DNA of 64,000 bases from Candidatus Latescibacterota bacterium (GTDB taxonomy: Bacteria; Latescibacterota; UBA2968; GCA-2709665), in contig OZ242358.1 of assembly GCA_965208835.1 (NCBI GenBank), positions 3,736,433-3,800,432 of the forward strand, read 5' to 3'. The stretch's first letter is position 1. Every line of letters starts with the position of its first letter. Below are positions 24,014 to 62,800 of the stretch, piece by piece. The position numbers were made by a program, and so were the translations under genes. The notes beneath the pieces were generated by a model. That model searched no databases, was not told where the DNA came from, and saw nothing but the letters and a program-made list of their open reading frames with translations.

Positions 24014-24143
24014 CCCGTGGCGGAAGCCTAATCGGTAATGGCGGCAAGAGCCGACGGCAAGCCGTGAAAACCGGCGTTTTCATCTCAATTTCCAAGCGAT
24101 ACGGTACACGATGAGGCGTGTCTACAAATCAAGGAGCTTGGAT

Positions 24144-27100
24144 ATGTCCAGGTGGGTTCTTCTTTTCGGAATCGTCTTGTTCTCCTGCGGTATTGCGATG
24201 GGCCAGGAGTATTTCGGCAAGAACAAGGTGACGTATGACGATTACGACTGGCACTATCTGGAGACGGAACATTTCAAGATCTATTTCGACAAGGCGTCGC
24301 AGTCTGCGGCGGAGTTTGCGGCGAAGGAGGCGGAGCGATCGCTGGTGCGATTGGAGAAGGATCTGAAGTATACGCTGAAGGACCGGTATCCGATTGTGAT
24401 CTACAACTCTCACAACGGGTTTTCGGTAACGAACATCACGCCGACGGAGCAGTCGGAGTTCACAGGGGGTTTCACGGAGTTTGCACAGGGTCGCGTGGTG
24501 ATCCCGTATACGGGGTCGTATGCCGATTTCCGTCACGTGATCCACCACGAGCTGGTACACGTGGTGACACTGGAGATGTGGACGGGCGGCGGGTGGCTGG
24601 GCGCGATGATGACGCAGACGGCGTCGCTGCCGCCGCTGTGGATCGCGGAGGGTGTGGCGGAGTATCTGTCGCAGGGGGGCTGGGACCGCGAGGCCGACAA
24701 TTTCATGCGTCACGCGACGATCACGGGCTTTGTGCCGGGGATGATGTCGTTGAGCGGCGCGTTCGCGTATAAGGGCGGGCAGTCCGTCTTCGTGATGATC
24801 GAGGAGGAGTATGGCAAGGACAAGGTGGCGGAGTTCATTTCGTCGTTCCGTTCCGCGCGTTCCGTGGACAAGGCGCTGAAGGCGTCGGTGGGCGAGGGTG
24901 TGGAGGAGCTGGACGAGAAGTGGCAGTTGTGGTTGAAGCGTCAGTATTGGAACGAGATCAACCTGCACCATCCGTCGGAGGAGGTGGCGAAGCAGCTGAC
25001 GGAGGCGGGTGCGGGCCGTGGTTTTTACAATATCGCGCCGTCGTTTTCGCCGCAGGGCGACAAGATCGCGTATGTGACGGAGCGTCAGGGCACGTTCGAC
25101 ATCTACCTGATGTCGGCGATCGACGGTCAGGACCTGGGGCGGTTGGTGGAGGGCGAGCGTTCGTCGGACTTCGAGGGGCTGTTCGTGCTGCGTCCGGGCA
25201 TCACGTGGTCGCCGGACGGGAAGCAGATCGCGTTTGCGGCGAAGTCGCGCAACAAGAACACGCTGTATACGCTGGACGTGCGCAAGAAGCGTGTGACGAA
25301 GCGTTTCAAGTTCGATCTGGACGGGTTGTTCGAGCCCACGTGGTCGCCGGACGGCAAGCAGATCGCGATCGTGGGGTTGAAGGACGGGTGGTCGGACGTG
25401 TACGTAGTGGACGTGGCAGACGAGTCGTTGCGGCGGATGACGCGTGACCCGTATGACGAGAAGCACCTGGACTGGTCGCCGGACGGGAAGTGGATCGCGA
25501 TCAGTTCGGACCGGCCGTCGGCGGCGTTGGCGTATGACGGGTCGAAGGACTTCGAGTTCGGTGTGTATGACGTGTTCGTGCTGAAGGCGGACGGGAGCGA
25601 GATCCGGCGTGTGGTGGAAAGCGAGGTGAACGACAGCCATCCCACGTGGGGACCGGACTCGCAGACGCTGGCGTTCGTGTCGGACAGGACGGGCGTGGGC
25701 AACGTCTACATCACGCGCGTGGACGGCTCTCAGATGTATCCGATCAGCAATCTCTTGTCGGGAGCGCGGTATATCGACTGGAGCGCGGACGGCAAGAAGC
25801 TGGCGTTTACGACGTTTCACCGCGGGGGCTATGACATCTTCGTGATGAAGGACCCGCGCAAGCAGAAGCGGGGGATGGAGGATCTGCCGCTGACGCGTTA
25901 TGCGAAGCGTCTGGCGGGCATCGAGGACCGTCCGTTCGTGGAGCTGCAGCGCGAGCGGCAGCAGGAGCAGAAGGCGGCCGCGGCGGTGGACAGCGGGGGT
26001 GTGGCAGCGCAGGAAGACACGGCGGCGGTGGTCGCGGCGGCGGACAGGAAAGTGGAGACGTGGATGTCGGACCAGATGGCGCTGGCGGCGGCGGAGGCGA
26101 GCGGCGGCGACGAGGAGGAGGCCGGGACGGATACGCTGGAAACCGACGGCGACAGGGAGTTGACGCTACGCGACTGGAACCGGGAGTTCACGGTGAACAA
26201 ATACCGCGTGAAACTCAAACCGGAATTCTTCGGGGCGAACGCGGGCTTCGACACGTTCTACGGCGTGAGCAGCCTGCTGCACCTGTCCCTGACCGACGTG
26301 ATGGGCGACCACAGGCTCATCATACAGTCCGGGCTGAGCTTCTCCCTCAAAGACAGCGACCTCTTCCTCGGATACCAGAACCTCAAACACCAGACCAACT
26401 ATTACCTCAGCGCCTTTCATACGCGTCTGTTCTTTTTCGACCGGGGTCAGTTGAACGCCGATCGGTATTTCGGCGCGGAAGCGAGCCTTGTTCGGCCGTT
26501 CAGCCGATTCAGCAGGATGGAACTGGGCACGCGGGGCATCAGGATTTCCCGCGAACGCCTCGAACGGGAACGGTACGACAATCGGTGGGTTCGCCGCGGG
26601 TTCACCGGCAGCAGCCTGCGCGGGCTCTCGGGCACGGAAGTCGATTCCCGGGGAGCGGTGGTTTCCTACCTGGCTCTGGTGGACGACAACTCGCTGATGG
26701 GCGGCTTCGGAGCCGTGGACGGGCGGCGGGTGCGCCTCGGCGTTGAAGGAAGCTGGGCGGGAATGCGTTTTGCGGCACTCAACGTGGACCTCCGCGAGTA
26801 CATGCTCGCACTGGACGAATATACCTTTGCCTTTCGTCTCTCCGGCGGCACCAGCTTCGGTCAAAACAAGAGGGTCTATTTCGTCGGGGGCGTCAACAAC
26901 CCGGTGAATCCGAATTTCTCAACATTTGCCAACGTGGATCAGGACCGGATCTTCTTTTCCAGCTTTGTCTGGCCGCTGCGCGGCGTCGAATTGTTCGAAT
27001 TGGCCGGCGACACATATGTGTTGGCCAATGCGGCGTTCCGTTTTCCCCTCATCCGGGAGCTTATCATGGGATGGCCGCTGCCCCTCTTCTTCCAGAACGT

Positions 27101-27389
27101 CCAGGGCGAATTGTTCCTGGACATCGGCGGCGCCTTTGAACGAGAGAGATGGCGCGACGGCTGGATCGCCCGCGACGGCGGCTTTGAGCTCAATGTGCCA
27201 CAACACTTCCGCGGCGGGAGGTCCAAACACGGTCTCGAGAAACCGCAGATGGCAGCTGGGTACGGATTCGGCGTTCGGGTTAACCTGGGCTACTTCCTGT
27301 TCCGGTACGATCTGGCCTGGCCCACGGACTTTGCGCAGACCTACCATCCGCACCAGTATTTTTCAATTGACATTACGGGACATTTTTAG
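24144..27389 (+). CDS. HExxH (peptidase-MA-like) + PD40/TolB-type beta-propeller + Omp85/BamA-type beta-barrel fusion protein
   Basis: ATG at 24144 (MSRWVLLFGIVLFSCG) has AAGGAG upstream. HHELVH motif. Six or more repeats of the WSPDGKQIAF / DIYLM type. A/E/D-rich linker. C-terminal barrel ends ...YFSIDITGHF. Confidence 0.7.
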   Translation: MSRWVLLFGIVLFSCGIAMGQEYFGKNKVTYDDYDWHYLETEHFKIYFDKASQSAAEFAAKEAERSLVRLEKDLKYTLKDRYPIVIYNSHNGFSVTNITPTEQSEFTGGFTEFAQGRVVIPYTGSYADFRHVIHHELVHVVTLEMWTGGGWLGAMMTQTASLPPLWIAEGVAEYLSQGGWDREADNFMRHATITGFVPGMMSLSGAFAYKGGQSVFVMIEEEYGKDKVAEFISSFRSARSVDKALKASVGEGVEELDEKWQLWLKRQYWNEINLHHPSEEVAKQLTEAGAGRGFYNIAPSFSPQGDKIAYVTERQGTFDIYLMSAIDGQDLGRLVEGERSSDFEGLFVLRPGITWSPDGKQIAFAAKSRNKNTLYTLDVRKKRVTKRFKFDLDGLFEPTWSPDGKQIAIVGLKDGWSDVYVVDVADESLRRMTRDPYDEKHLDWSPDGKWIAISSDRPSAALAYDGSKDFEFGVYDVFVLKADGSEIRRVVESEVNDSHPTWGPDSQTLAFVSDRTGVGNVYITRVDGSQMYPISNLLSGARYIDWSADGKKLAFTTFHRGGYDIFVMKDPRKQKRGMEDLPLTRYAKRLAGIEDRPFVELQRERQQEQKAAAAVDSGGVAAQEDTAAVVAAADRKVETWMSDQMALAAAEASGGDEEEAGTDTLETDGDRELTLRDWNREFTVNKYRVKLKPEFFGANAGFDTFYGVSSLLHLSLTDVMGDHRLIIQSGLSFSLKDSDLFLGYQNLKHQTNYYLSAFHTRLFFFDRGQLNADRYFGAEASLVRPFSRFSRMELGTRGIRISRERLERERYDNRWVRRGFTGSSLRGLSGTEVDSRGAVVSYLALVDDNSLMGGFGAVDGRRVRLGVEGSWAGMRFAALNVDLREYMLALDEYTFAFRLSGGTSFGQNKRVYFVGGVNNPVNPNFSTFANVDQDRIFFSSFVWPLRGVELFELAGDTYVLANAAFRFPLIRELIMGWPLPLFFQNVQGELFLDIGGAFERERWRDGWIARDGGFELNVPQHFRGGRSKHGLEKPQMAAGYGFGVRVNLGYFLFRYDLAWPTDFAQTYHPHQYFSIDITGHF

Positions 27390-35688: not shown

Positions 35689-36543
35689 CTATCTGTCTTT
35701 TTTCAGAAGGATATTCAAAGGTCGTTTGGGCTTGTAGAGATAGATGACGTCGGCAGGGTCCAGCATGGTATTGAATATGGCGATTTCGTCAATTTTGCCG
35801 GAATAGGCGTAATTGTTGAACCGGATGGCCAATTCATCCATGTTCCAGGAAATGTTGCGTCGGATATTCTTCTTCCGACCGATTTCCTCGCCGTCGACGA
35901 AGAGTGCGTATTCGGCATCGGAGTTTCCACTGTTGATATTGGACCAGGTGACCACAACGTGGTGCCATTGGTCGGACTTCCAGTTGAGCCTGTCGTACCT
36001 GATCGTCCACTGCCTTACCAGTTCTTCCCCGACGTTTTGCGTCTTGTCGGGATAACAGCCGAAACGGAGTGCGCTCGGAGGACGATCCTTCCGGTTCTTG
36101 TCGAAGTCTACGAAAATGACCGCGTCGTCCCACTTCTTTCCGACGGAAAAGGGCTCGGGAAATTTCTCCTTGAAATCGTTGTTTGGATCTACGCTCAGCC
36201 AGAAAGAGACCCCGCCGGACCAGGAACTGCCGGCGTCGTAGGGAAAGTTGCCTTTAGCCTGATAACTCAGATAGGTTGCACCGTTCGCGAATGAAACGAA
36301 ACCGTCCTCTTTGCCACCGGTAAACTCATGCCTGGGAGGGCTGCTCGTTTCCATTGCAGCGACCGTGCCCTTTTTCTTCGTAAATGCCTCGAAACGGGAT
36401 CTGTCGTCAAAGTTGGCGAAAAAGAGTACGTTCGCGGCGAGCTTTTCCTCGATTTTCTTCTCGGGACCGCCGCAGAAAGAAAGACAAAGCGCGGCAGCCG
36501 GAATTGAGATCAGGCGGGGAGCGCACCGGGCCATAAGGCACAT
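35689..36543 (-). CDS. LamG / concanavalin-A-like lectin domain lipoprotein
   Basis: 284 aa. N-terminus AAALCLSFCGG. Motifs DQWHHVVVTWS...YALFVDGEEIG...YSGKIDEIAIFNTML are typical of the LamG fold. Confidence 0.6.
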   Translation of the reverse strand: MCLMARCAPRLISIPAAALCLSFCGGPEKKIEEKLAANVLFFANFDDRSRFEAFTKKKGTVAAMETSSPPRHEFTGGKEDGFVSFANGATYLSYQAKGNFPYDAGSSWSGGVSFWLSVDPNNDFKEKFPEPFSVGKKWDDAVIFVDFDKNRKDRPPSALRFGCYPDKTQNVGEELVRQWTIRYDRLNWKSDQWHHVVVTWSNINSGNSDAEYALFVDGEEIGRKKNIRRNISWNMDELAIRFNNYAYSGKIDEIAIFNTMLDPADVIYLYKPKRPLNILLKKDR

Positions 36544-37123: not shown

Positions 37124-37145
37124 TCTCAAGATTCAGGAGTTGAAA

Positions 37146-40100
37146 ATGCTGCGCAAACTAGGCGGCGTGATTCTCTGGCTGATCGCAATCTTTATGCTTT
37201 CGTCGGTTACCGTGTTCAACCCGGGACAGGTAACCGACTTTTTTGTTCGTGTGTTCAATATCAAGCCAAGTGTTCCGCAGTTGCGCGAGGAAAAACCCTC
37301 CCATAGAGACGAAAGCATTCAGGATTTCGCCGATCAGATCTCAGAGGAGCGTCTTCAGGAAACTGTATCTGCTCTCACTGGATTGGGATCTCGCGTGCCG
37401 GGGTATCCGGGGCACAGGAAGGCATTTGAATACGTCAAGAGCCGTTTCCAGGCGCTGGGCCTGGACGACATAACGGTCGAGGAACACCACGTTACGGTAC
37501 CTATCGACAAGGGCGCGAAACTGGAGATCCTGGACTCCGGTGTGAAGATCCGGCTTTACGGACTCTGGCCCAATCATGTACAGACACCTTCCCTGCCGGA
37601 ACAAGGCGTTACCGGCGCACTGATCGACGCGGGAGACGGCTCCTTCAAAGCGTTGAATTCGAAACCTGTGAAAAACAGCATTGCATTGATGCAGTTCGAT
37701 TGCGGACAGAACTACCTCAATCCCCGCATGCTGGGTGCGCAGGCTGTCATCTTCTACGATAACGGCGGCGTGAGCAGAGGACAGGCACTGGAGAAAATCC
37801 TCCAGGTGCCGGTGGACGTGCCGAGGTTCTGGGTGAAAAGAGACGACGCGGTCCGTCTTGTTTCACTTGCGGAGTCCGGCACCGCGCTCGTGAACGTCAC
37901 GTCGAGGATGGACTGGGAAAAGGTCCCCACGTGGAACATCTACGCCACACTGCCCGGCTCCGATGAATACGTTACTGAGCGTGAAGAACGGAAGTGGAAG
38001 GACGAGATGGTCGTCCTGAGTTCATTTTACGACGCCATTTCCGTCGTGCCTGCACTGGCCCCGGGCGCGGAGAACGCCACAGGGCTGGCTGCCCTTCTGG
38101 AAGTCGCGGCTGCGTTGAAAGACCAATCCTGGCTGGGCGCTTCCTCCCGACTGCCGCAGCTGCCGAGGTATACGGTAAAATTCCTGGTAACGGGCGCACA
38201 TTTCCAGGGGTTGGCCGGCATCAATGATTTTCTGTTCAGGCATTCCAGGGAAAGCGACCACTTCCGGGAGAAAATTCCGGACGGACAGAAGATCGACTTC
38301 CGTCTCTACGTCGGGTTCGACCTGTCGAGTGAAACGGACCAGATCGCCAGTTTCTCCCACGGTACGTTCATCAACCCGAACTGGTCAACGAACAACTACG
38401 AAAACAACCTGCTTGCACCCTATGCCAAGAAGTTCAACAAATACCTTGCCAAAGTCTATCCCGGCGAGGAGCGCCACGTCGACGCCGTCGCGCCGCCGAA
38501 GCGAACCTGGAAGAACTACATGCCCATCCGTCTGGGATTCGACAGTGAAGCGGTCAAATTCGTCGGCAAGGAAGGAATTACGCTGGCCAGCCCTTCCACA
38601 ACCCGCGAAAAGGTGGATACGCCCGCCGACCAGGTGGAATTCGTCAACTTCTCCAACCTGGCCCACCAGACACGTACAGCAACAGGCATGCTGCTGAAGG
38701 CGTTGGAAGATCCCGAATTCTTCCGGGTGTCCAAACTCAAGCTTCAGGACCTTGGTCACAGCATGAAGGGGCGAATTCTCTGGTTCGAACGGGATGCCGA
38801 TTTCGCGATTCCGCGCGTACCGGTACCGGGGGCGATCGTCACCTACCAGCAGCCCGGTCCGGTTGCGAGCTGCGGCGGGGTCCGAACATTGATTGTGGAT
38901 AAGACCACCCAGGGCCCCAGGTACATCAGTGATCGCTCCACGGGGCCTATGTTCGGAACCAAGGCGGAAGTCGAAGCCACAGGGCGGTTCCGCTTCGACA
39001 TCATGCGTAACCGGTTTACAAATCAGATACTGGCATACGAAATCGACGATCGCGGCAGAATCACCTCGGCGCCGGACCTGGGCACGGAAGGGGAGGAAAA
39101 GTTCCCGACAAGGCAGGGCTATGGATGGTGGGAAAACGAGATGCTGGCGGTCCTTTTCAAGTGCCGGTCTCTCAGCGTGTTTGAAATCATCGATTCCAGT
39201 TACCTTTCCGCGCTCGATTTCATGACCGTGTTGAATGCGGGCGATTCCCAGCCGATGGAATACGGCTATTATTACATTGAAAATCAGAGTATCAAGGAAG
39301 GCGATGTCACACGGGCAGCGGTGGCGTTTACGGCCATGAACCCCACTACCGACCGTCCCGACCCCATCAAGATTCTGATGAGTACAGGCCTTTTTGGCGT
39401 GAAATACCTGCTGACCAACGCACCTGAGGAGTTGCTGGAACAACCCGTGGACAAGTGGGATGTGGACGATGAGTTGCTGGAGCGGTCCCGGGGCGCAGGA
39501 TATCCGCCTGGCATAATCCTGTATCCTTCCTACAAGGCCGCCAAGGATATGTGGGTGGTCGACGATATCAGGATGAAGCAGCTTGCCCAGTACGGAATTA
39601 CCAACGCACGGCTGGAGAAGTTGCACACGCATGCGGCCGACGCGCTGAAGAAGGCGCGCGAGAATCTGGCCAGCCACGACTACGAAGGATTTATTGCCGC
39701 GTCCAGAGAGGCGTGGGGCCTGGAAGCACGGGGATACCCCGAGGTCATGTCAACCGCAAACGACACGGTGCGCGGGATCATCTTTTATTTCATTCTCCTG
39801 CTTCCGTTCTCCTTCTTCTGCGAACGGCTGCTTTTCGGATTCCCGGATATCACCCGCCGTCTGGTCGGCTTTGCAGGAATCTTCGTGCTGTTTTTCATTA
39901 TCCTCCGATACGTGCATCCGGCCTTCAAGCTGAGCAGCACGCCCTACATCATCTTCCTGGCATTTGTAATCATGGCCCTGGGCGGCATTGCAATGTTCAT
40001 TGTCGTTTCCAAATTCGGCGAGGAAGTCAGGAAGATGAAACAGGCCTCGGCGGGCACGTACGAGGCGGATGTGGGTCGGTTGAGCGCGACTGCCGCTTCC

Positions 40101-41942
40101 ATCATTCTGGGCATTTCCAATCTGCGAAAACGACCCCTCCGTACCGGGCTGACGGCGATCACCCTGACGTTGCTTACGTTCACCGCCCTGTCGTTTACAT
40201 CGGTGCAGACTTCCATCAAATTCTATCGCCTGCCGAGGGACAACCAGCCGCCGTACCCTGGCGGCCTGGTACGGGATCGATCCTGGAGGGGATTGCAGGA
40301 ATCCGTACTTCAGTACCTGACCAGCGCTTTCAAGGGCCGTGCGACCATTGTTCCCCGTGCGTGGTATCTTTCGCAGGTTCGCGGGGAACGGGCGTACGTC
40401 AATTTCTCGCGGATCACGGATCAGACTTCCTACCTGGGCTCAAGAGATACCTATGTCGATTTCGACGTGGGCATCACCACCGGAAAGGACAGCTTCGTAA
40501 ACGGCTTGCTGGGGCTTACCGCGGAAGAACCTGAAATCACCGGCGTCGACCGATACCTGATCAGCGGAAGATGGTTTGTCCCCGGAGAGACGAATGTGTG
40601 TATTCTCCCGAACGATCTCGCGGAACTGGTGGGAATCTTCCCTGAAGACGCCGGGAGTGCGAAAATCGAGATGCTGGGCGGCGTCTTCACCGTGATTGGA
40701 ATCATGGATTCCGAGGGATTCAACAAATACAAGGACATGGACGACGAGAAGCTGACGCCGGTGGATACGGTAAAGGAGAAGGACGACCTGGCGGACGCTC
40801 AGGACCAGGACCCGCGAGTCGTCGCTGCGGCTCCGATCGAGACGTTTACGCATCTGGAGTCGACCAACGTGATGATATTGCCTTATGATTACGTCCGCAA
40901 TATCGGAGGCACTCTGAATTCCGTCGCATTAGCGAACTTCGTGGACGCCCAGGGCAATCCCAGGTCGAACTTCCTGCCTGATGTCGAGGAATTCATGACA
41001 CGGGTTTCTTTGACTATGTTTGTGGGCCACGAAAACAAGGTCACGGTGTACAGTTCCATCGGTTCAACGTCTCTATCGGGATTGGGCACGCTCTTCATTC
41101 CGATTCTGATTGCCGCATTGATCGTGCTGAATACGATGATGGGCGCGGTGTACGAACGGTTCAACGAGATCGGGATTTACTCGGCGGTCGGGCTGGCGCC
41201 CAATCACATTGCGGCGCTGTTTCTGGCGGAAGCGACCGTATTCGCCACGGTGGGCGCCGTGTTCGGATATCTGATTGGACAAGTGCTTGTTCTCGTGCTG
41301 TTTACCCAGGCGCAGGCGCAGGGACAACTGCTCAGCCTCGAATTGAACTATTCTTCGTTGTCAGCCATTTCGTCCACATTAATTGTCATGGCTACGGTAT
41401 TCCTCTCTACACTGTACCCTGCCAAAAAAGCCGCGGATATGGCCGTGCCTGATGTGACCCGAAAGTGGGAGTTTCCGGAGCCCGAGGGCGACAGATGGGT
41501 ATTCGATTTTCCGTTTACCGTTGGCGGCGCGGAAGTATTGGGAATGTACACGTATCTGACACGCGTCTTCGAGTCATACGGCGAGGGTTCCGTAGGCGAC
41601 TTTGTGGCCGATTACGTCCGTTTCACTTCGCAGGACATGCAGGGTGAGCCACAATATGAGATCAACCTCACGTGCTGGCTTGCGCCATACGACCTGGGCA
41701 TCAGCCAGGAGGTGGCGCTGCTGGCCATTCCAACGAGAGAACACAATATTTACAAGATTGAGGTCGTCATCAACCGGCTCAGCGGTGACGTGGCCTCGTG
41801 GAAACGCATCAACAGGGGTTTCCTGAACGTCCTCCGGAAGCGATTCCTGGTCTGGCGCACCATTCCACCCGAACTGAAGCACCAGTACGCGGACGAGGGC
41901 AACCGCATTCTGTCAGACACGGTAGAAGAAGCGGCAGTATAG
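37146..41942 (+). CDS. Giant membrane protein: N-terminal anchor + M28B/PA (transferrin-receptor-like, apparently inactive) ectodomain + FtsX/MacB-type permease + C-terminal cytoplasmic domain
   Basis: The ORF track starts at 37047 inside repeat 2b. The ATG at 37146 (MLRKLGGVILWLIAIFML) follows CAGGAG. PA-like VTGALIDAGDG...IALMQFDCGQNY...GAQAVIFYD. M28-like VVLSSFYDAIS..APGAENATGLAALLEVA..FLVTGAHFQGLAGINDF. FtsX motifs LRKRPLRTGLTAITLTLLTF and MGAVYERFNEIGIYSAVGLAPNHIAALFLAEA. Confidence 0.7.
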   Translation: MLRKLGGVILWLIAIFMLSSVTVFNPGQVTDFFVRVFNIKPSVPQLREEKPSHRDESIQDFADQISEERLQETVSALTGLGSRVPGYPGHRKAFEYVKSRFQALGLDDITVEEHHVTVPIDKGAKLEILDSGVKIRLYGLWPNHVQTPSLPEQGVTGALIDAGDGSFKALNSKPVKNSIALMQFDCGQNYLNPRMLGAQAVIFYDNGGVSRGQALEKILQVPVDVPRFWVKRDDAVRLVSLAESGTALVNVTSRMDWEKVPTWNIYATLPGSDEYVTEREERKWKDEMVVLSSFYDAISVVPALAPGAENATGLAALLEVAAALKDQSWLGASSRLPQLPRYTVKFLVTGAHFQGLAGINDFLFRHSRESDHFREKIPDGQKIDFRLYVGFDLSSETDQIASFSHGTFINPNWSTNNYENNLLAPYAKKFNKYLAKVYPGEERHVDAVAPPKRTWKNYMPIRLGFDSEAVKFVGKEGITLASPSTTREKVDTPADQVEFVNFSNLAHQTRTATGMLLKALEDPEFFRVSKLKLQDLGHSMKGRILWFERDADFAIPRVPVPGAIVTYQQPGPVASCGGVRTLIVDKTTQGPRYISDRSTGPMFGTKAEVEATGRFRFDIMRNRFTNQILAYEIDDRGRITSAPDLGTEGEEKFPTRQGYGWWENEMLAVLFKCRSLSVFEIIDSSYLSALDFMTVLNAGDSQPMEYGYYYIENQSIKEGDVTRAAVAFTAMNPTTDRPDPIKILMSTGLFGVKYLLTNAPEELLEQPVDKWDVDDELLERSRGAGYPPGIILYPSYKAAKDMWVVDDIRMKQLAQYGITNARLEKLHTHAADALKKARENLASHDYEGFIAASREAWGLEARGYPEVMSTANDTVRGIIFYFILLLPFSFFCERLLFGFPDITRRLVGFAGIFVLFFIILRYVHPAFKLSSTPYIIFLAFVIMALGGIAMFIVVSKFGEEVRKMKQASAGTYEADVGRLSATAASIILGISNLRKRPLRTGLTAITLTLLTFTALSFTSVQTSIKFYRLPRDNQPPYPGGLVRDRSWRGLQESVLQYLTSAFKGRATIVPRAWYLSQVRGERAYVNFSRITDQTSYLGSRDTYVDFDVGITTGKDSFVNGLLGLTAEEPEITGVDRYLISGRWFVPGETNVCILPNDLAELVGIFPEDAGSAKIEMLGGVFTVIGIMDSEGFNKYKDMDDEKLTPVDTVKEKDDLADAQDQDPRVVAAAPIETFTHLESTNVMILPYDYVRNIGGTLNSVALANFVDAQGNPRSNFLPDVEEFMTRVSLTMFVGHENKVTVYSSIGSTSLSGLGTLFIPILIAALIVLNTMMGAVYERFNEIGIYSAVGLAPNHIAALFLAEATVFATVGAVFGYLIGQVLVLVLFTQAQAQGQLLSLELNYSSLSAISSTLIVMATVFLSTLYPAKKAADMAVPDVTRKWEFPEPEGDRWVFDFPFTVGGAEVLGMYTYLTRVFESYGEGSVGDFVADYVRFTSQDMQGEPQYEINLTCWLAPYDLGISQEVALLAIPTREHNIYKIEVVINRLSGDVASWKRINRGFLNVLRKRFLVWRTIPPELKHQYADEGNRILSDTVEEAAV

Positions 41943-42011
41943 GAAGTATACGCTCCGGATCGCGGGCAACCGGCGGGTTGACCCTCGACTCTCTGCTCCC
42001 AACGAGGAGGG

Positions 42012-44066
42012 GTGGTTTTGGCAATCGAACCCAAAGACCCTAGAGAAGAGCAGGAACAGTACGAAAACATCATGCCGGTCGATGCGCCGTTCGAAGATGG
42101 CTTCAATATGAAGACCCTGTGGGCGACGCTTTTTGTGGGCCTGGTGATGCTGCCCGGTGCAATCTATCTTGGCCTGGTTACCGGACAGAACATGGCGGGT
42201 GCGTCCGAATGGGTGACCATCATCCTCTTCCTGGAAATCGCCAAAAGGTCCTTCGTGAGGCTGAAGACGCAGGAGGTCCTGGTCATCTACTGGGTTGCCG
42301 GCGGATTGCTGGGCGTGGGCGTCCGGTTGGGCAGCGCGGCACTGGTGTATGGAGGGCCGTTCGGCGGATTGATCTGGGATCAATACCTGATCCAGTCCCC
42401 GGCCGCCAGAGGGCTTGCGGATTTCATACCGGACTGGGTGGTTCCCCGGATCAGCGAACATCCGGAGATTTACGCGGAACGTACGTTCCTGCACGCCGCG
42501 TGGTTGAAGCCGATCGGCATCCTCGTCGCATTGACACTGTTAAGCAATACCGCGAGACTGTCGCTTGGGTACGTGATGTTTCGCATTACGAGCGACATCG
42601 AACGGTTGCCGTTTCCGCTGGCTCCAGTCCAGGCCCGCGGGGCCACCGCGCTCGCCGAAACGTCGGCCAAACAGGAAGGCTGGAGATGGCGGGTATTCAG
42701 TACAGGAGCGTGTATCGGATTGGTCTGGGGCCTTCTGTATGTCGTGGTCCCGACACTGTCCAGCATATTCCTGACCGATACGGTCCAGATCCTTCCCATT
42801 CCCTGGATCGATTTCACGGAACAGATCAAGACCATCCTGCCCGCTGCGCTGTTTGGAATAGCAACCGACCTGGGCCACCTGATCGTCGGGTTCGTTTTGC
42901 CGTTCTGGGTGGTTATCGGGTCGTTCGCCGGCGCCGTCCTTGGAAACCTGGTTGTCAATCCGTTTCTGTACAGATGGGAAATCCTGGACCGCTGGTCCGC
43001 GGGCATGACGGCGATCCCGACTTCGATCTCCAACCAGTTCGACTTCTGGCTCAGCTTTGGGATCGGCACTTCGTTCGTCATCGCGTTCACTGGATTCTAC
43101 CAGGTGTTTCGGGTGCTTATGGAACAGCGCCGTCAGAAGCAGCAAACGGGGCATCATACGTCCGGTATCGACCTCGAGGACCTTCCGAAGGGCCGGTCGG
43201 ATATGAAGATGATTTACCCTATTCTGTTCTGGGGCGCCGCCACATTGGGCTTTATCGTGATGTGCCAGATGCTGGTTCCCGAGTTCCACTGGGGCTGGGT
43301 CGTGTTCTTCGGACTCATTTACACGCCGATTTCTTCTTATATCGGCGCGCGCATGATCGGCCTGACGGGAAGCCCGTACGGGGCGAGTATCCCCTATTTA
43401 CGGGAAGCGGGAATACTTCTTTCCGGATACAAGGGCGTCGCGGTCTGGTTCGCCCCCCTTCCGCTGCACGACCACGGCCTGGCCGTGCCTACCTACAAAC
43501 AGATGGAACTCACGAAAACGAAATTTGTCAGTTACGTGAAATTGACCGCGGTGACCATGGTGGTCATTTTCATCTTCAGCTTCATCTTCTGGGAATTCAT
43601 CTGGCGACTTGGACCCATTCCCTCATCCAGCTATTACTATGTGCAGACATTCTGGCCATACGACGCCACAATGACCACGATGTGGCTAAAGTCGACAATG
43701 CCGGACCTCGAAGGGCAAGGGACCGTCGGCGTCGAACTCCTCAAAGATATTATCAAACCGGAACTCATCGGCGCCGGATTCGCCGTTGGCGGCCTCATGT
43801 ATCTCATTCTGGCCGCGCTGAAAGCGCCTACGCTGTTCTTTTTCGGCTTCGTGGGCTCGCTTGCAACATGGCCGCATTTCGTGATCCTGCAGTTTGCCGG
43901 CGCACTGCTTGGACGTTTCTATTTCGCCAGGCGTTTCGGCGAATCCAAGTGGCGGGCGTACGCACCCATTCTGCTGGCAGGATATTACTGTGGCATGGGG
44001 CTCATCGGGATGACTTCGGTTTCCGTTGTGCTGATTTCAAAGGCCGTCTCCCAGGTCGTATTCTAG
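42012..44066 (+). CDS. Polytopic (12 or more TM) membrane protein ('P2'), paralog of 4982..6949
   Basis: 684 aa. The GTG at 42012 directly abuts GAGGAGG, so the TTG at 42018 has better spacing. Motifs FIPDWVVPR and FRITSDIERLPFPLAPV parallel IPHWLAPR and QWMESERISFPILRPV in P1. Confidence 0.65.
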   Translation: MVLAIEPKDPREEQEQYENIMPVDAPFEDGFNMKTLWATLFVGLVMLPGAIYLGLVTGQNMAGASEWVTIILFLEIAKRSFVRLKTQEVLVIYWVAGGLLGVGVRLGSAALVYGGPFGGLIWDQYLIQSPAARGLADFIPDWVVPRISEHPEIYAERTFLHAAWLKPIGILVALTLLSNTARLSLGYVMFRITSDIERLPFPLAPVQARGATALAETSAKQEGWRWRVFSTGACIGLVWGLLYVVVPTLSSIFLTDTVQILPIPWIDFTEQIKTILPAALFGIATDLGHLIVGFVLPFWVVIGSFAGAVLGNLVVNPFLYRWEILDRWSAGMTAIPTSISNQFDFWLSFGIGTSFVIAFTGFYQVFRVLMEQRRQKQQTGHHTSGIDLEDLPKGRSDMKMIYPILFWGAATLGFIVMCQMLVPEFHWGWVVFFGLIYTPISSYIGARMIGLTGSPYGASIPYLREAGILLSGYKGVAVWFAPLPLHDHGLAVPTYKQMELTKTKFVSYVKLTAVTMVVIFIFSFIFWEFIWRLGPIPSSSYYYVQTFWPYDATMTTMWLKSTMPDLEGQGTVGVELLKDIIKPELIGAGFAVGGLMYLILAALKAPTLFFFGFVGSLATWPHFVILQFAGALLGRFYFARRFGESKWRAYAPILLAGYYCGMGLIGMTSVSVVLISKAVSQVVF

Positions 44067-44221
44067 TGTTCTGTCCCAAAAATATCTAACCATTCAGCCG
44101 CCGATTCATCCCGTCTCGCGGCGTTGCCTTCCCTCGCCGACCTTCCGCAGGTCGGAGGCGCCTTGCGAGCCGGGCGACTCGACAGCTGAATTTAGGCAAC
44201 CTATTTCCGGGACAGAACACT
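44065..44221. repeat. Singleton 157-bp long palindrome abutting the P2 stop codon
   Basis: AGTGTTCTGTCCC (44065-44077) pairs with GGGACAGAACACT (44209-44221). Inner pairs are ATTCAGC/GCTGAAT and a central CGACCT-TCCGC-AGGTCG. Confidence 0.6.
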
Positions 44222-44223
44222 GG

Positions 44224-44322
44224 CAGTCCTTTGATAAAGTCGCTCTGTAGGCGAGGCCGCGCAATGCAGTATTTCGACCGCAAGGGCCGGCCGCAGCCCG
44301 GATGGGCTCTTTCAACGGGCTG
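44224..44322 (-). repeat. Family-1 repeat, copy g (99-bp internal-deletion subfamily, reverse orientation)
   Basis: Runs CAGTCCTTTGATAAAGTCGCTCTGTAGGCGAGGCCGCGCAATGCAGTATTTCGACCG...CAACGGGCTG, with the same junction type as copy f. Confidence 0.75.
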
Positions 44323-44451
44323 CCAGCCTGGAAGCCTGTGTTGTATGACGGAACGCCGCCCGGATCCCGGCTGTCTAAGGAACACCCAAGACGCCTGATC
44401 CGGGCCGAATTTCATCCGCCTGGACCGGATTTCAACCACAGGGAGGTTTCA

Positions 44452-51444: not shown

Positions 51445-52110
51445 ATGGAAAAACCGTTCGGAATTGAGGCCCTGCAAGACCGCCTCGTTAGCAATCCCGC
51501 GTCGTTCGTCGTGGTACTGTCGGGTCCTGCAGGCGCAGGAAAGACAACCATCCGCCAGGGACTGCTGGAATGCGACAACGCGTTGCGGGTATGTGTGACC
51601 ACCACCACACGCGCCAAACGCCTTAACGAAGTGGACGGCGTCGACTACCATTTCGTCTCGGAAGATGCGTTTCGTGCGGGGCTGAAACAGAGGTGTTTTT
51701 TCGAATGGGCGGAGGTGTACGGCTTTCTTTACGGCGCAACCTTCGAGGCGATCGCGCACGCGCTTGGACAAGGCGGCGTTGTGCTGCTCGTGGCAGACGT
51801 GCAGGGCGCGGCGGTGTGGAAGCGCTTGCTCAGGAAACGATGCGTCAGCGTGTTCGTGCTGCCGCCATCGGTCAAGGTGCTTGAGGAGCGCCTGGGAGGG
51901 CGTAAGACCGAAGAGGGTGGCGTCTTAAAGCGCAGGCTGGAGAATGCGAGGTCTGAACTTGCTAAAGCCGTGGAGTTCGATTATCTCGTCGTCAATGGGG
52001 AGCTTGATCGCGCCATATCCGATGTTCAGGAACTGATTCGCGTTGAAAGGCGCAGGCCATGGCGAACGCCCGACTTAATTGATGAATTCGGGCGCCGGAG
52101 TGTGCCTTAG
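51445..52110 (+). CDS. gmk: Guanylate kinase
   Basis: 221 aa. P-loop SGPAGAGKTT, TTTTRAKRLNEVDGVDYHFVS, EWAEVYGFLYG. Confidence 0.9.
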   Translation: MEKPFGIEALQDRLVSNPASFVVVLSGPAGAGKTTIRQGLLECDNALRVCVTTTTRAKRLNEVDGVDYHFVSEDAFRAGLKQRCFFEWAEVYGFLYGATFEAIAHALGQGGVVLLVADVQGAAVWKRLLRKRCVSVFVLPPSVKVLEERLGGRKTEEGGVLKRRLENARSELAKAVEFDYLVVNGELDRAISDVQELIRVERRRPWRTPDLIDEFGRRSVP

Positions 52111-59844: not shown

Positions 59845-62800
59845 CTATACCACCTTGCCGAACAGGAGAGCAAACCGGACGAAGTCCGAGAATGCGACGT
59901 TGCCGTCGTCGTCCAGGTCGAATCGGGGATTGGTGGAGCCGAAGGCGCTGGCAAACATCAGAAAGTCGGTAAAGTCAACCCTGCCGCTTCCGTCGAAATC
60001 GGCGATTCCCGCCGAAGGAAAGGTGGTCTGCCCGGACGTAAACGTGACGTTCCTGAATCCGGAAGCGAGGGGTACGCCTGACGAGTCAGCGGCCATGGAA
60101 CATGCAAGGCTGTACTCACGACCGGCTTCAAACGGCAAGAAAAACGAAAGCAGGGCGCGCTGGCTCGTTCGGTCAAGAGTCACCGAGGTCGGGCGACCCA
60201 GGTCGGGGGTGACCGAATATCCGTTCGGATTGGCCGTTCCGGCTGACATCGGTTCACTGAACTCGAGTGAGAGACTGTTCGCGTGGATGACTTCCACGCG
60301 ATCCAGTTCCGGAGCCGGATTGGGGCGCAGGACGTGTGTTTCGGAGCTGATCTCGTCGCCGCCGGGCAGAGTGGCAATCACAACGTAACGATACACTCTG
60401 TTTTCGGCCAGGCCAGTGTCCGTGTACGAATTAGTGGTCAGTTTGTCCGCTATGGCTTCCGGCATACTTCCGTCGACCCCGCGCAGAATGCGATAGATGG
60501 CGCCGCTTTCGACGGGCGCCCACGCCAGCCGTACGCTTTCCGGTCCCAACGGATAAGCATGAACGATCTGTAGAATCCTGCTTATGCCCGGCTCGGTGCG
60601 TTCCATCAGACGTACGGCGCCGTCCCTGTTGTAGAGCAGCTCCGCGTAACCATCCCTGTCCAGATCCGCAATGAGCGGGCGGTAAGTCAATGAAACGGTT
60701 TCATGCCAGACGGGTTCGTATGAATCCGGGCCGGTGGCGCGGATGAGGTAAAGGTCCGGGCGCAGACAGACGGCCAGGTCGGGGATACCGTTGCCGTCCA
60801 CGTCGCCCGTCGCAATACCGTTTCCCGTCGAGATTACACCCGAGACTCGAATCGACCACTCCTGTGCATAGGAGGACAATCCGTCCGCACTGTAGATTTC
60901 AAGGTCCCACCGGCCGTTGAGTGCGTCGTTCCGGTCTTCCGCCGCGCGGGCGACGACGAACTCCACGTCGCCGTCATTGTCGATATCGGCGGCGCCCCCG
61001 ATCCATTGGGTATTGGTGCTGTCACTGCCCGCCAGTTTCCAGGTCTGCGCGAAACCGCCTCCGGGCAGAGCCTCATAGATCCAGAGGTCTCCGTCGTCGT
61101 CGCCTGAGAGGATTTCCTTCCGCCCGTTGCCGTTCAGATCCGCGATGACAAACCGGGGACCGGGCCGGTTTCGGCCTTCGGTCGGATTCGGAAGAGGGGT
61201 GCCTCCAATGAAGGCACCTTCACGCGTACTCCTGAGAATACGAATCCCAGGCATATCGGCGGATCGGGTCACGATCTCGTTTCTACCGTCGCCGTCGACA
61301 TCGGCGATTTCCCCGCCCCGGGCTTGATCCAGATTCAGAAGGACTTCGGAGGGAAAGGGGTTTCCCCCAAAGAGCAGGAGGCGCGGAAAACGGGTGCCGA
61401 GCAGATCGGTGCTACCGTCGTTGTTCGCGTCGCCCAGAGCCAAGGGCCAGAACGACTCGCTGGTCCGGAAGATGGTGGTGAAGCTTCCATCCTCGTTGCG
61501 TTCCAGGATTAGGTTTGTATTGTAGGTACGGCCGCTGGCGTAGGGCATCAGTACGAGTTCGGGCCGCCCGTCCATGTCGAAGTCGGCGGTCTCGTTTGCA
61601 AGATACCCGTCGGGCAGGGTGTCGATCTCCACGAAACCACGAGAGGAGAGACGAAGCGGATCCACCCTTAACGTCAATGGTTCGGAAAACACGGCCTGTC
61701 CCCCGGCATCCCTGGACATGATCCGGTATTCCAGGGGCCCGGGTGCGAGGTCTGGAGGCAGGGTGACGCGATGACGGGTGTAGATGATGTCCGAAAACAG
61801 GGTGTCTTCTCGCGTCGCCGTAGACGAGCGAAAGAGCAAGGCACCGCGTGTTGGACGTCTGGTGTGCCATTCGGCCTGGTACGCCTGGCGGTTTCCAATG
61901 AGTATGGGTGCGAAAGACGCCCTGGATATAACCGGCAAGGCCCGCAGTATGCCGATTCGCACCCGGTCTTCAAGTGTCGTGCCATCCGTCAGCCTGACCA
62001 GCAGCCGCAGGATGACAGTGGTGTCGGCCGGCGTACCCGGGGTCCAGGAATGCCGGATGTTCGATCCCGGCGGTCCACCGGAGAGCCGGTTCCAGGATTG
62101 AGGATCTTCTCCCCTGCCGGAAAACAGTTCGTAGCCGGCAACGTTGGGACCATCGGCCCGGGCGAGGATGTCTACGTTCCGCCTGGCGCCGTCGTCCATC
62201 CGGGGGTGGTCGATCTGCACGACGGGGGGATCTGTCCATCCCGTCGTTTTTTCGAGCAAATTCGCCGCATCGATACGACCGGCACCGCTGCTGCTGTCCC
62301 AACCCTCCGGACCGAGATCGACTACGGACGCCGTGAGCAACGAGCGGACCTGCTCGGGGGTGAGATCGGGACGACGGGAGAGAATAAGCGCCGTGAGGCC
62401 CGCGACGTGGGGCGCCGCGAAGGACGTGCCGGAGGCGTGTACATAGCGGTTTCCCGGCGTGGTTGTAAGCGTACCCGAGCCCGGCGCGACCAGGTCCAGC
62501 GGGACCCCCAGGCTGCTGAACGCGGCAATCCGGTCGCGCGGCGCCGTGGCTCCCACGGCAATGGTTTCGTCCATGGCAGCCGGGTAGGAAAGGCCGAATT
62601 CGCCGCTGTTACCTGCGGAACTGACCAGGATGAGGCCGCTCGCGGCGGCATAGCGCACGACGTCGCGGATCAGGAACGCGCTTTCCGGCCCACCCCAACT
62701 CATATTGATGATGTGGGCGCCGTTTTCCACGGCATAGAGAATTGCGGCGGCAAGGTCGTCTTCTTCAAGAAAGGTAAGGTTGGATTGCAGCGTCACGCCG

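What the first reader, a model, noticed from the sequence alone, without database searches (positions are those of the whole stretch)
37146..44066. Two-gene membrane module (FtsX-fusion + 684-aa polytopic protein) with no ABC ATPase in the window
The giant gene is followed 70 nt later, on the same strand, by P2 (42012..44066), which has a strong GAGGAGG RBS. The pair is bounded upstream by a promoter/terminator unit and a family-2 repeat, and downstream by a long palindrome.

FtsX/MacB-type permeases normally work with a cognate ABC ATPase (FtsE, MacB NBD, LolD and similar). Across the whole 64 kb I saw no ORF with Walker A plus an LSGGQ signature.

Either the ATPase is encoded elsewhere, or the unrecognised C-terminal domain or P2 replaces it. 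If the latter, this could be a mechanotransmission or transport system of a new type.
Basis: inference. Interest (0 to 1): 0.65.

Follow-up and report, generated by a model that had tools for sequence, protein, structure and literature searches.

The report
ATPase-less FtsX giant with OPT-fold partner
A 1,598-residue membrane protein with a MacB/FtsX-type permease module and no ATPase is encoded next to, and in some relatives fused to, a yellow-stripe/OPT-fold transporter in uncultured Latescibacterota, so this looks like an undescribed ATP-independent use of a fold known only from ABC machines.

Summary
Two co-directional genes lie 70-75 nt apart with no terminator between them: 37146-41942 (1,598 aa) and 42012/42018-44066 (684/682 aa). 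No ABC ATPase is encoded anywhere in the 64 kb.

The giant protein has four parts:
- an N-terminal anchor;
- a PA/M28 peptidase-like ectodomain whose catalytic and zinc residues are replaced, as in transferrin receptor and nicalin;
- a 3-TM bundle followed by a MacB/LolC/FtsX-type module (Foldseek probability 1.0);
- a conserved 175-aa cytoplasmic tail with no Pfam or PDB relative and no nucleotide-binding motif.

P2 has no Pfam hit. Its model matches only barley Yellow Stripe 1, the solved OPT-family structure.

In 76 of 80 related loci the giant gene sits within about 5 kb of a P2-type or DUF6785/DUF6784-type polytopic gene. About 25 protein clusters fuse the giant and DUF6785/6784 into one 2,090-2,160-aa protein. 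A dedicated ATPase gene is never adjacent.

Best reading: an NBD-less type-VII-fold protein works in complex with an OPT-fold secondary transporter, probably driven by proton-motive force. The partnership is well supported. The mechanism is inferred, and an ATPase encoded elsewhere is not excluded. I rate it a new variant of known kinds.

The parts
37134..37139 (+). Shine-Dalgarno-like CAGGAG, 6 nt upstream of the giant gene's ATG
   Evidence: Sequence read directly.
37146..41942 (+). Giant gene, 1,598 aa, with predicted 1+3+4 TM topology. It is an NBD-less MacB/FtsX-fold protein with a pseudo-M28 ectodomain.
   Evidence: ORF. Homologues are full length at 50-98% identity. Hydropathy profile.
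37158..37214 (+). N-terminal signal-anchor TM helix (aa 5-23)
   Evidence: Kyte-Doolittle peak of 2.31.
37608..38435 (+). PA domain plus the core of the M28 peptidase-like domain. It is predicted periplasmic and its active site is degenerate.
   Evidence: Pfam PA E 5e-4 and Peptidase_M28 E 7e-6. A family profile hits aminopeptidase 2ek8 (E 4e-13), transferrin receptor and nicalin. His->F/Y, Asp->Glu and Glu-Glu->His-Phe substitutions, the last pair invariant in the family.
38727..39764 (+). Periplasmic beta-rich domain followed by long helices, with no family assignment
   Evidence: AF2 model residues 1-345, mostly pLDDT 75-92. No Pfam hit.
39765..40004 (+). Three-helix TM bundle preceding the FtsX module (aa 874-953)
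   Evidence: Hydropathy profile. Helices in the model. Invariant E893 R894 and H924 P925 A926 F927.
40149..41414 (+). MacB/LolC/FtsX-type module: TM1, a roughly 285-aa periplasmic domain, then TM2-4 with an invariant coupling-helix motif (ER..EIG...VGL.P.HI..LFLAE)
   Evidence: Pfam FtsX E 3e-14. PF12704 MacB_PCD in homologues. Foldseek hits to MacB, LolCDE, YtrEF, HrtBA, BceAB and FtsEX at probability 1.0. PDB profile hits.
41415..41939 (+). Cytoplasmic C-terminal domain (CTD, 175 aa), predicted beta-alpha-beta4-alpha2. It has no Walker motifs and is not in Pfam.
   Evidence: 54 invariant columns. No Pfam or PDB sequence relative. Found in 1,558 clusters at 50% identity; among the 150 best listed it is almost always at the C-terminus of FtsX-containing proteins. 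Secondary structure from the model.
42003..42009 (+). GAGGAGG ribosome-binding site of P2
   Evidence: Sequence read directly.
42018..44066 (+). P2, a polytopic OPT/yellow-stripe-fold transporter-like protein. It is 682 aa from TTG 42018, or 684 aa if GTG 42012 is used.
   Evidence: More than 2,250 homologues, some named 'peptide transporter' or carrying a faint PF03169 OPT hit. AF2 model pLDDT 70, pTM 0.74. The only significant Foldseek PDB hits are HvYS1 7wst/7wsr (E 7e-9, probability 1.0, TM 0.58/0.65).

Best explanation
The two genes encode the subunits of one inner-membrane complex found in Latescibacterota and neighbouring candidate phyla.

**Subunit 1, the giant.** It is a MacB/FtsX-fold (type VII ABC-permease-fold) protein with no nucleotide-binding domain. 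Its parts are:
- a large periplasmic head built from a catalytically dead PA/M28 aminopeptidase-like domain plus an unassigned beta-rich domain;
- an extra 3-TM bundle;
- a family-specific cytoplasmic C-terminal domain.

**Subunit 2, P2.** It is an OPT/yellow-stripe-fold secondary transporter.

**Proposed working, inferred.**
- The pseudo-peptidase head binds a peptide-like or chelate-like ligand in the periplasm rather than cleaving it.
- The FtsX-fold stalk and TM module couples that head to the OPT-fold permease.
- The OPT-fold permease moves the ligand across the membrane using the proton-motive force.
- The complex therefore needs no ATPase.
- The CTD sits where canonical systems dock their ATPase. 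It is proposed to lock or regulate the coupling helices.

**Shown here:** the domain composition and folds, the loss of the M28 catalytic residues, the absence of an ATPase in cis, the conserved linkage, and the gene fusions.

**Inferred:** physical complex formation in the unfused window pair, the substrate class, the direction of transport, the energy source, and the role of the CTD.
For: - **Fold and domain calls.** Pfam FtsX, M28 and PA. Foldseek places the C-terminal two thirds with MacB/LolCDE/FtsEX at probability 1.0. P2 matches only HvYS1.
- **Dead peptidase site.** His->F/Y and Asp->E. The Glu-Glu->H352 F353 pair is invariant across 33 homologues. The same profile hits the non-catalytic relatives transferrin receptor and nicalin.
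- **No ATPase.** None in the window. None in any of the more than 40 loci with giants at least 67% identical, including closed 5-6 Mb chromosomes. The CTD has no P-loop.
- **Linkage.** 76 of 80 loci from different GTDB species have a P2-type or DUF6785-type gene within about 5 kb, usually abutting on the same strand. Gene order varies: P2 downstream, P2 upstream, or DUF6785 on both sides. All-against-all clustering found no other neighbour family kept across the subfamilies.
- **Fusions.** About 25 clusters at 90% identity, 48-100% identical to one another, on many contigs including a closed 4.56 Mb genome, encode M28-like + MacB_PCD + FtsX + CTD + DUF6785 + DUF6784 as one protein.
- **Second phylum.** The pairing also occurs in a Handelsmanbacteria MAG, with a 4-bp gene overlap.
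- **Partner families.** P2 and DUF6785 proteins align at equivalent positions in their N-terminal third (hhalign probability 81-85%, E 6e-6 to 1e-5).
Against: - No experiment or co-fold shows that the window's two proteins touch.
- The fusions involve DUF6785/6784, not the P2 subfamily. P2-DUF6785 homology is only probable.
- A P2 homologue at 57% identity occurs with no giant gene within 10 kb, so P2-type proteins can work alone.
- The coupling-helix motif that docks the ATPase in canonical systems is invariant here. That would also fit an ATPase supplied in trans.
- Four of 80 loci have an FtsX-permease + ABC ATPase pair directly after P2.
- Substrate and energy coupling are pure inference from family knowledge (OPT members characterised so far are proton-coupled importers; own knowledge).
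- The P2 model has only moderate confidence (pLDDT 70).
Confidence: 0.5

Rival explanations
1. This is a canonical type VII ABC system whose ATPase is encoded elsewhere. A shared FtsE/LolD/MacB-type NBD docks in trans on the giant's coupling helices and powers periplasmic work by the pseudo-peptidase head. P2 is a co-transcribed transporter that is mechanistically independent.
For: - The FtsX signature and coupling-helix residues are invariant (E1337 R1338 E1341 I1342 ... E1362).
- The fold is indistinguishable from ATP-driven MacB/LolCDE.
- Four of 80 loci have an FtsX permease + ABC_tran pair right after P2.
- LolD serving two different permeases is a precedent for sharing (own knowledge).
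Against: - FtsX-type permease genes are almost always operonic with their ATPase (own knowledge).
- Here none is adjacent in 76 of 80 loci.
- Thirteen of the 18 ABC genes found within 10 kb are an unrelated gene beyond pyrB/pyrC.
- Genomes carry three or more giant paralogues, each with its own polytopic partner and no ATPase.
- A conserved CTD follows TM4, at the position of the minor coupling helix in MacB (the MacB position is own knowledge).
- Fusion to the polytopic partner shows that the linkage is mechanistic, not merely regulatory.
Confidence: 0.25
2. This is an outside-in receptor or regulator rather than a transport aid. The dead M28/PA head senses a periplasmic ligand. The FtsX-fold helices carry the signal inward to the CTD, which gates or regulates the OPT-fold transporter or another cytoplasmic target. 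No energy input is needed.
For: - Non-catalytic M28 relatives act as receptors or scaffolds; transferrin receptor and nicalin are hit.
- BceAB-type FtsX proteins act as sensors (own knowledge; BceAB is hit).
- The CTD is the most conserved soluble part (54 invariant columns).
- There are weak Foldseek hits to ligand-binding START/Bet v 1 folds somewhere in the model.
Against: - No output domain of a known signalling type is present.
- No response regulator or kinase is conserved nearby.
- Which region gave the START-like hits is unknown, and their TM scores are low (0.24-0.38).
- BceAB sensing itself needs ATP hydrolysis (own knowledge).
Confidence: 0.15
3. This is an active peptide-scavenging pair. 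The ectodomain is a working, atypical metallopeptidase that trims extracellular peptides, and P2 imports the products.
For: - M28 and PA Pfam hits.
- 'Peptide transporter' names on P2 homologues.
- The window is rich in envelope proteases: S8 at 59845-63579 and Peptidase_MA_2 at 24111-27389.
- D296 and E309 of the metal site are retained.
Against: - The His ligand, the general-base Glu and the Glu ligand of the co-catalytic zinc site are replaced by F/Y, H and F. The last two are invariant across the family.
- The final His ligand appears replaced by Asp (VDTP; read by eye against the M28 motif, not covered by the alignment).
- Some paralogues lose the Pfam M28 hit altogether.
- This reading does not explain the FtsX module or the CTD.
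Confidence: 0.08

Closest known systems
Type VII ABC transporters / mechanotransmission family (MacB, LolCDE, FtsEX, HrtBA, BceAB, YtrEF)
   Same: - Four-helix FtsX TM fold with a periplasmic domain between TM1 and TM2, including MacB_PCD.
- Stalk helices.
- A conserved coupling-helix motif between TM2 and TM3.
- Foldseek probability 1.0, E down to 5e-10.
   Different: - No fused or operon-encoded ABC ATPase.
- About 1,000 extra N-terminal residues: an anchor, a pseudo-M28 head and a 3-TM bundle.
- A unique 175-aa cytoplasmic C-terminal domain.
- Obligate genomic linkage or fusion to a roughly 650-aa polytopic protein.
OPT superfamily (oligopeptide / yellow-stripe-like transporters; barley HvYS1, PDB 7wst/7wsr)
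   Same: - The P2 model superposes on HvYS1 over about 700 alignment columns (TM 0.58/0.65, probability 1.0).
- Relatives carry faint PF03169 hits.
   Different: - Only 13-14% identity.
- No Pfam OPT hit for the window protein even at E<=10.
- Partnered with an FtsX-fold protein, which is not described for any OPT member (searches found no literature).
Pfam DUF6785 + DUF6784 polytopic proteins
   Same: - Same size.
- Same genomic role as partner of giant-family genes.
- Alignable N-terminal third, including the ERLxFP/ERLRYP motif.
   Different: - P2 gets no DUF6785 or DUF6784 hit.
- Homology is supported only at hhalign probability 81-85%.
- The fold of DUF6785 was not modelled here.
Non-catalytic M28/PA proteins (transferrin receptor 1, nicalin) and active PA-M28 aminopeptidases (2ek8, YwaD)
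   Same: - PA-in-M28 domain arrangement.
- Profile hits to 2ek8 (E 4e-13), YwaD, TfR1 and nicalin.
- Loss of catalytic residues as in TfR1 and nicalin (the loss in those two proteins is own knowledge).
   Different: - Bacterial.
- Fused to an FtsX-fold membrane module.
- Carries its own invariant replacement set (Y/F, D, E, H, F), which may form a different ligand site.

Membership tests
Type VII ABC transporter (MacB/FtsX/LolC-type) | FtsX 4-TM permease fold with an extracytoplasmic domain between TM1 and TM2 | tested here: met
   - Pfam FtsX E 3e-14.
- Hydropathy profile.
- AF2 plus Foldseek hits to MacB/LolCDE/FtsEX at probability 1.0.
Type VII ABC transporter (MacB/FtsX/LolC-type) | Cognate ABC nucleotide-binding domain, fused or encoded in the same operon | tested here: not met
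   - No NBD in the protein or in the 64 kb window.
- None within 10 kb in any locus with a giant at least 67% identical.
- An NBD encoded elsewhere in the genome could not be searched for.
Type VII ABC transporter (MacB/FtsX/LolC-type) | Conserved cytoplasmic coupling helix between TM2 and TM3 | tested here: met
   ERFNEIGIYSAVGLAPNHIAALFLAEA, with E1337 R1338 E1341 I1342 G1349 L1350 P1352 H1354 E1362 invariant in 33 homologues. It aligns with MacB and YtrF.
Peptidase family M28 (active co-catalytic zinc aminopeptidase) | M28 domain sequence similarity | tested here: met
   - Pfam PF04389 E 7e-6, 26.4 bits against a cut-off of 21.3.
- Family profile against 2ek8 gives E 4e-13.
Peptidase family M28 (active co-catalytic zinc aminopeptidase) | Zinc ligands His/Asp/Glu/Asp/His and the catalytic Glu (motifs HxD, xDDxSG, EE) | tested here: not met
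   Aligned to 2ek8: HHD -> FYD (Y/F at the His position), DD -> EN, EE -> HF with H352 F353 invariant.
OPT superfamily (PF03169; TC 2.A.67) | OPT/yellow-stripe transporter fold | tested here: met
   Foldseek against PDB: the only hits with E<=0.001 are HvYS1 7wst/7wsr (E 7e-9, TM 0.58/0.65). The next hit has E 0.11. The model pLDDT is 70.
OPT superfamily (PF03169; TC 2.A.67) | Pfam OPT profile match at the gathering threshold | tested here: not met
   No Pfam family for P2 at E<=10. Relatives at 72% identity have only 'faint' PF03169 hits.
OPT superfamily (PF03169; TC 2.A.67) | Proton-coupled import of peptides or metal chelates | not testable with these tools
   Needs transport assays.
DUF6785/DUF6784 family | Pfam PF20581 and PF20580 matches | tested here: not met
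   P2 has no hit. Profile-profile similarity covers the N-terminal third only (probability 81-85%).

The most novel reading that the evidence does not exclude
The OPT-fold partner is not merely a transporter. It is the energy-converting subunit. Its proton-driven alternating-access cycle is mechanically coupled, through the extra 3-TM bundle and the CTD, to the MacB-type stalk. This would be a proton-motive-force-driven 'mechanotransmission' machine that does work in the periplasm without ATP. It would be the first energisation mode other than ATP hydrolysis for the type VII ABC fold.
Probability: 0.15. Interest if true: 0.9.

Novelty: new variant of a known kind. Interest (0 to 1): 0.68.

Why it matters
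The MacB/FtsX/LolC fold is the textbook case of ATP-powered force transmission across the inner membrane. It underlies lipoprotein sorting, control of the cell-division hydrolases, and antibiotic and peptide resistance.

This family has at least 1,500 clusters at 50% identity. It keeps that fold and its coupling helix but lacks an ATPase, and it is repeatedly linked or fused to a secondary-transporter-fold protein. If the reading is right, it would show that the fold can be driven or used in another way.

It would also give a first functional handle on Pfam DUF6785/DUF6784 and on bacterial OPT-like proteins. It adds a bacterial example of a peptidase domain turned into a non-catalytic binding module.

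Latescibacterota genomes carry several copies per genome, so the system is probably central to how these uncultured sediment- and sponge-associated bacteria acquire substrates.

Tried and rejected
1. **Peptidase plus peptide importer.** I first read the pair as an active M28 aminopeptidase with a peptide importer. I rejected this as the main reading because the catalytic residues are replaced.
2. **Regex ABC hits.** The regex flagged 'ABC' ORFs about 8 kb downstream in L026 and L038, and my first NBD HMM hit window 51445-52110 at E 5e-26. These were guanylate kinase false positives (Pfam). A cleaned HMM finds nothing in the window.
3. **Conserved ABC gene in L066-L082.** The 254-aa ABC gene about 8 kb downstream is separated from the giant by pyrB, pyrC, a TPR gene, an aminotransferase and a creatininase gene. 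I judged it unrelated.
4. **Identity of the CTD.** Pfam at E<=10 on 20 members and a PDB profile search gave nothing real; the SAKe designer-protein hits are short-motif artefacts. The START/Bet v 1/PsbP Foldseek hits could not be assigned to a region because only whole models can be searched.
5. **Sequence searches against PDB.** A phmmer search of the ectodomain alone and a P2 profile search both found nothing.
6. **Global hhalign of P2 against DUF6785.** It failed. Only the local N-terminal alignment is significant.
7. **Literature.** Searches for DUF6785/DUF6784, FtsX + OPT + Latescibacteria, and ATPase-less FtsX found nothing relevant.
8. **RNA genes.** Rfam and tRNA scans of the window found nothing.
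9. **Short CTD-bearing proteins.** The roughly 600-aa proteins (FtsX + CTD only) may be gene fragments. This is unresolved.

Full report
**1. What is in the sequence**

The region holds two long co-directional ORFs: 37047/37146-41942 and 42012-44066.

The giant gene starts at ATG 37146. Three things support this:
- CAGGAG lies 6 nt upstream.
- Homologues begin at the equivalent residue.
- Gene callers on identical contigs,598 aa.

For P2, GAGGAGG (42003-42009) is too close to GTG 42012. TTG 42018 gives the 682-aa product that gene callers report.

No terminator-like site lies in the 69-75 nt gap, so the two genes look like one transcription unit.

Upstream is a divergent Laminin_G_3 gene (35689-36543, minus strand). 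Downstream there is a 385-nt spacer, then a 157-aa ORF, a metallophosphoesterase and a DUF255/thioredoxin-fold gene.

**2. No ATPase**

- A six-frame search for Walker A plus an ABC signature in one ORF found nothing.
- An HMM built from 17 genuine ABC NBDs taken from related loci gives a best window hit of 8.6 bits, E 0.03.
- The P-loop ORFs in the window are guanylate kinase, Era and DnaB.
- An earlier apparent hit came from guanylate kinases contaminating my regex-selected training set.

**3. Anatomy of the giant protein**

Hydropathy gives a 1+3+4 TM layout. Pfam finds PA, Peptidase_M28 and FtsX. Homologues also score MacB_PCD.

A 33-sequence alignment is conserved end to end, with 56% mean column identity.

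A family profile against PDB hits these groups:
- PA-M28 aminopeptidases (2ek8 at E 4e-13);
- the non-catalytic relatives transferrin receptor and nicalin;
- MacB, YtrF, LolC/LolF and FtsX.

In the alignment to 2ek8 the M28 signature residues are replaced:
- HHD becomes FYD.
- The bridging Asp in xDDxSG becomes Glu (GAENATG).
- The catalytic and ligand Glu-Glu pair becomes His-Phe, invariant as H352 F353.

By eye, the last His ligand motif reads VDTP. The head is therefore a pseudo-peptidase.

An AF2 model of residues 528-1598 (121-sequence alignment, pLDDT 77) matches MacB, LolCDE, the S. pneumoniae non-canonical ABC transporter, YtrEF, HrtBA, BceAB and FtsEX at probability 1.0.

After TM4 comes a 175-aa domain, predicted as beta-alpha-beta4-alpha2, with 54 invariant positions:
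- Its conserved motifs are VPDVxRxW, FDFPFT, WLAPYDLGxSQ and RKxFLVW.
- It has no P-loop.
- It has no Pfam or PDB sequence relative.

A profile of this domain finds 1,558 clusters at 50% identity in 1.84 billion representatives. Among the 150 best listed it is almost always at the C-terminus, mostly of proteins 1,450-1,900 aa long and some up to 3,053 aa. The members I scanned all have FtsX just before it.

**4. P2**

P2 has no Pfam or NCBIfam hit, even at E<=10. It has more than 2,250 homologues. Some are named 'peptide transporter' and some carry faint PF03169 (OPT) hits.

An AF2 model (pLDDT 70, pTM 0.74) matches only the barley Yellow Stripe 1 transporter (7wst/7wsr; E 7e-9, probability 1.0, TM 0.58/0.65). 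The next hit has E 0.11.

P2 is therefore a divergent member of the OPT/yellow-stripe fold class.

**5. Is the pair real? Comparative evidence**

A scan of one genome per GTDB species found 316 loci encoding giant homologues. The best 80 are almost all Latescibacterota MAGs. The window is 98% identical to a MAG, RHO1_bin_28, that is labelled Gemmatimonadota.

I searched all ORFs within +/-10 kb of the giant gene with HMMs for P2-type and DUF6785-type proteins. The results were:
- 76 of 80 loci have one or both within about 5 kb.
- Three of the four exceptions (L068, L077, L082) are short or truncated contigs. The fourth, L078, has only a weak DUF6785-type hit 9 kb upstream.
- In loci with giants at least 67% identical, P2 almost always abuts downstream (within about 240 nt; L040 and L044 are 4.5 and 2.0 kb away).
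- Paralogues at 56% identity are flanked by DUF6785/6784 genes.
- The 51% groups have DUF6785 overlapping the stop codon with P2 1.9 kb further on, or a divergent DUF6785.
- In L014 a 56%-identical P2 lies upstream of the giant.
- Reverse look-ups from P2 homologues found giants adjacent in five of six cases. P0119 was the exception.
- All-against-all clustering found no other neighbour family kept across the subfamilies.
- A Handelsmanbacteria homologue shows the same DUF6785-giant pairing with a 4-bp overlap.

About 25 clusters at 90% identity encode natural fusions, M28-like + MacB_PCD + FtsX + CTD + DUF6785 + DUF6784, of 2,086-2,161 aa. They are 48-100% identical to one another and occur on many contigs, including a closed 4.56 Mb chromosome. 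This is classical Rosetta-stone evidence for physical association of the two protein types.

P2 and DUF6785 proteins are probably distant homologues (BLASTP E 1e-3 at equivalent positions; hhalign probability 81-85%). This is not proven.

**6. ATPase in relatives**

With the cleaned NBD HMM, 18 of 80 loci have an ABC NBD within 10 kb:
- Thirteen are the same gene about 8 kb away, beyond pyrB, pyrC and other housekeeping genes.
- One is on the opposite strand.
- Four (L058, L060, L061, L079) have a separate small FtsX permease plus NBD directly after P2.

No locus has an NBD gene abutting the giant gene. Closed genomes carry three giant paralogues, each with polytopic partners and none with an ATPase.

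**7. Interpretation**

Firmly supported:
- The giant is an NBD-less MacB/FtsX-fold protein with a dead M28/PA head and a novel cytoplasmic tail.
- P2 has the OPT fold.
- The two protein types are functionally and probably physically coupled.
- No cis ATPase exists.

Inferred:
- The complex is driven by the proton-motive force through the OPT-fold subunit.
- The head captures a peptide-like or chelate-like ligand for it.
- The CTD occupies or regulates the ATPase-docking surface.

The main rival is a trans-encoded ATPase. It is kept alive by the invariant coupling-helix motif and by the four loci with a neighbouring ABC pair. I could not scan whole genomes to test it.

**8. Comparison and novelty**

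The module resembles type VII ABC transporters in fold but fails their defining requirement of a cognate NBD in cis. It resembles M28 peptidases in fold but fails the catalytic-site test. P2 resembles OPT transporters in fold but not at the Pfam threshold.

I found no literature on DUF6785/6784 or on FtsX-OPT pairings. Public names are only 'FtsX-like permease family protein', 'M28 family peptidase' and 'peptide transporter'.

I rate it a new variant of known kinds, with a modest chance of being a truly new energisation mode for the MacB fold.

Noticed in passing
window 44067-44451: The 385-nt non-coding spacer after P2 contains several imperfect inverted repeats (44092-44107/44176-44191, 44220-44239/44307-44326, 44347-44366/44397-44416) and a perfect 7-bp hairpin, CCGACCT-TCCGC-AGGTCGG, read by eye at about 44137-44155. 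There is no Rfam match and no T-tract. Its function is unknown.
   Followed up: partly
L014 2862-8994 and L098 3850-10022: In two relatives the P2-type gene is preceded by the same block: a large TPR/YfiO-like protein, ExbB, ExbD, ExbD, a roughly 260-aa ORF, and a rotamase (PPIase). A proton-motive-force-driven Ton/Tol-like motor sitting next to the module may be relevant to how it is energised.
   Followed up: no
L012 15024-22421; L013 22766-24508; L095 16210-19790; L007 7548-9842; window 59845-63579 (minus strand): FG-GAP/UnbV_ASPIC repeat proteins recur beside giant/P2/DUF6785 modules in relatives. The window itself has an S8 subtilase fused to FG-GAP repeats. CHU_C/FlgD_ig (T9SS-type sorting) and PorV genes are also frequent neighbours.
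   Followed up: no
L007 12033-12926; L014 16643-17821: DUF4159 genes lie in the module neighbourhood in two Latescibacterota loci: directly after the P2-type gene in L007, and after the 633-aa ORF that follows the giant gene in L014.
   Followed up: no
window 24111-27389 (+): This 1,092-aa ORF combines Peptidase_MA_2, PD40/DPPIV-type beta-propeller repeats and a C-terminal Omp85-superfamily segment. That is an unusual architecture for an outer-membrane protein.
   Followed up: no
L015, L019, L020 against L016-L018, L021, L022: Loci whose giant genes are 94-98% identical to the window's come from MAGs labelled Gemmatimonadota (the RHO1-3 bins) and from MAGs labelled Latescibacterota. At least one set of phylum labels must be wrong.
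   Followed up: no
L097 414-11996: One locus encodes DUF6785/6784, asparaginase, giant, P2-type and DUF6785/6784 in a row. A single giant can therefore be accompanied by up to three polytopic partners of two types.
   Followed up: partly
P0242 (2,930 aa), P0244 (3,053 aa), P0273 (2,451 aa): Some family members carry about 1,000-1,400 extra N-terminal residues. P0242 has Big_5 and P0273 has LysM and NMB0315-like (peptidoglycan-related) domains. This hints that the periplasmic head is modular and may sometimes target the cell wall.
   Followed up: partly
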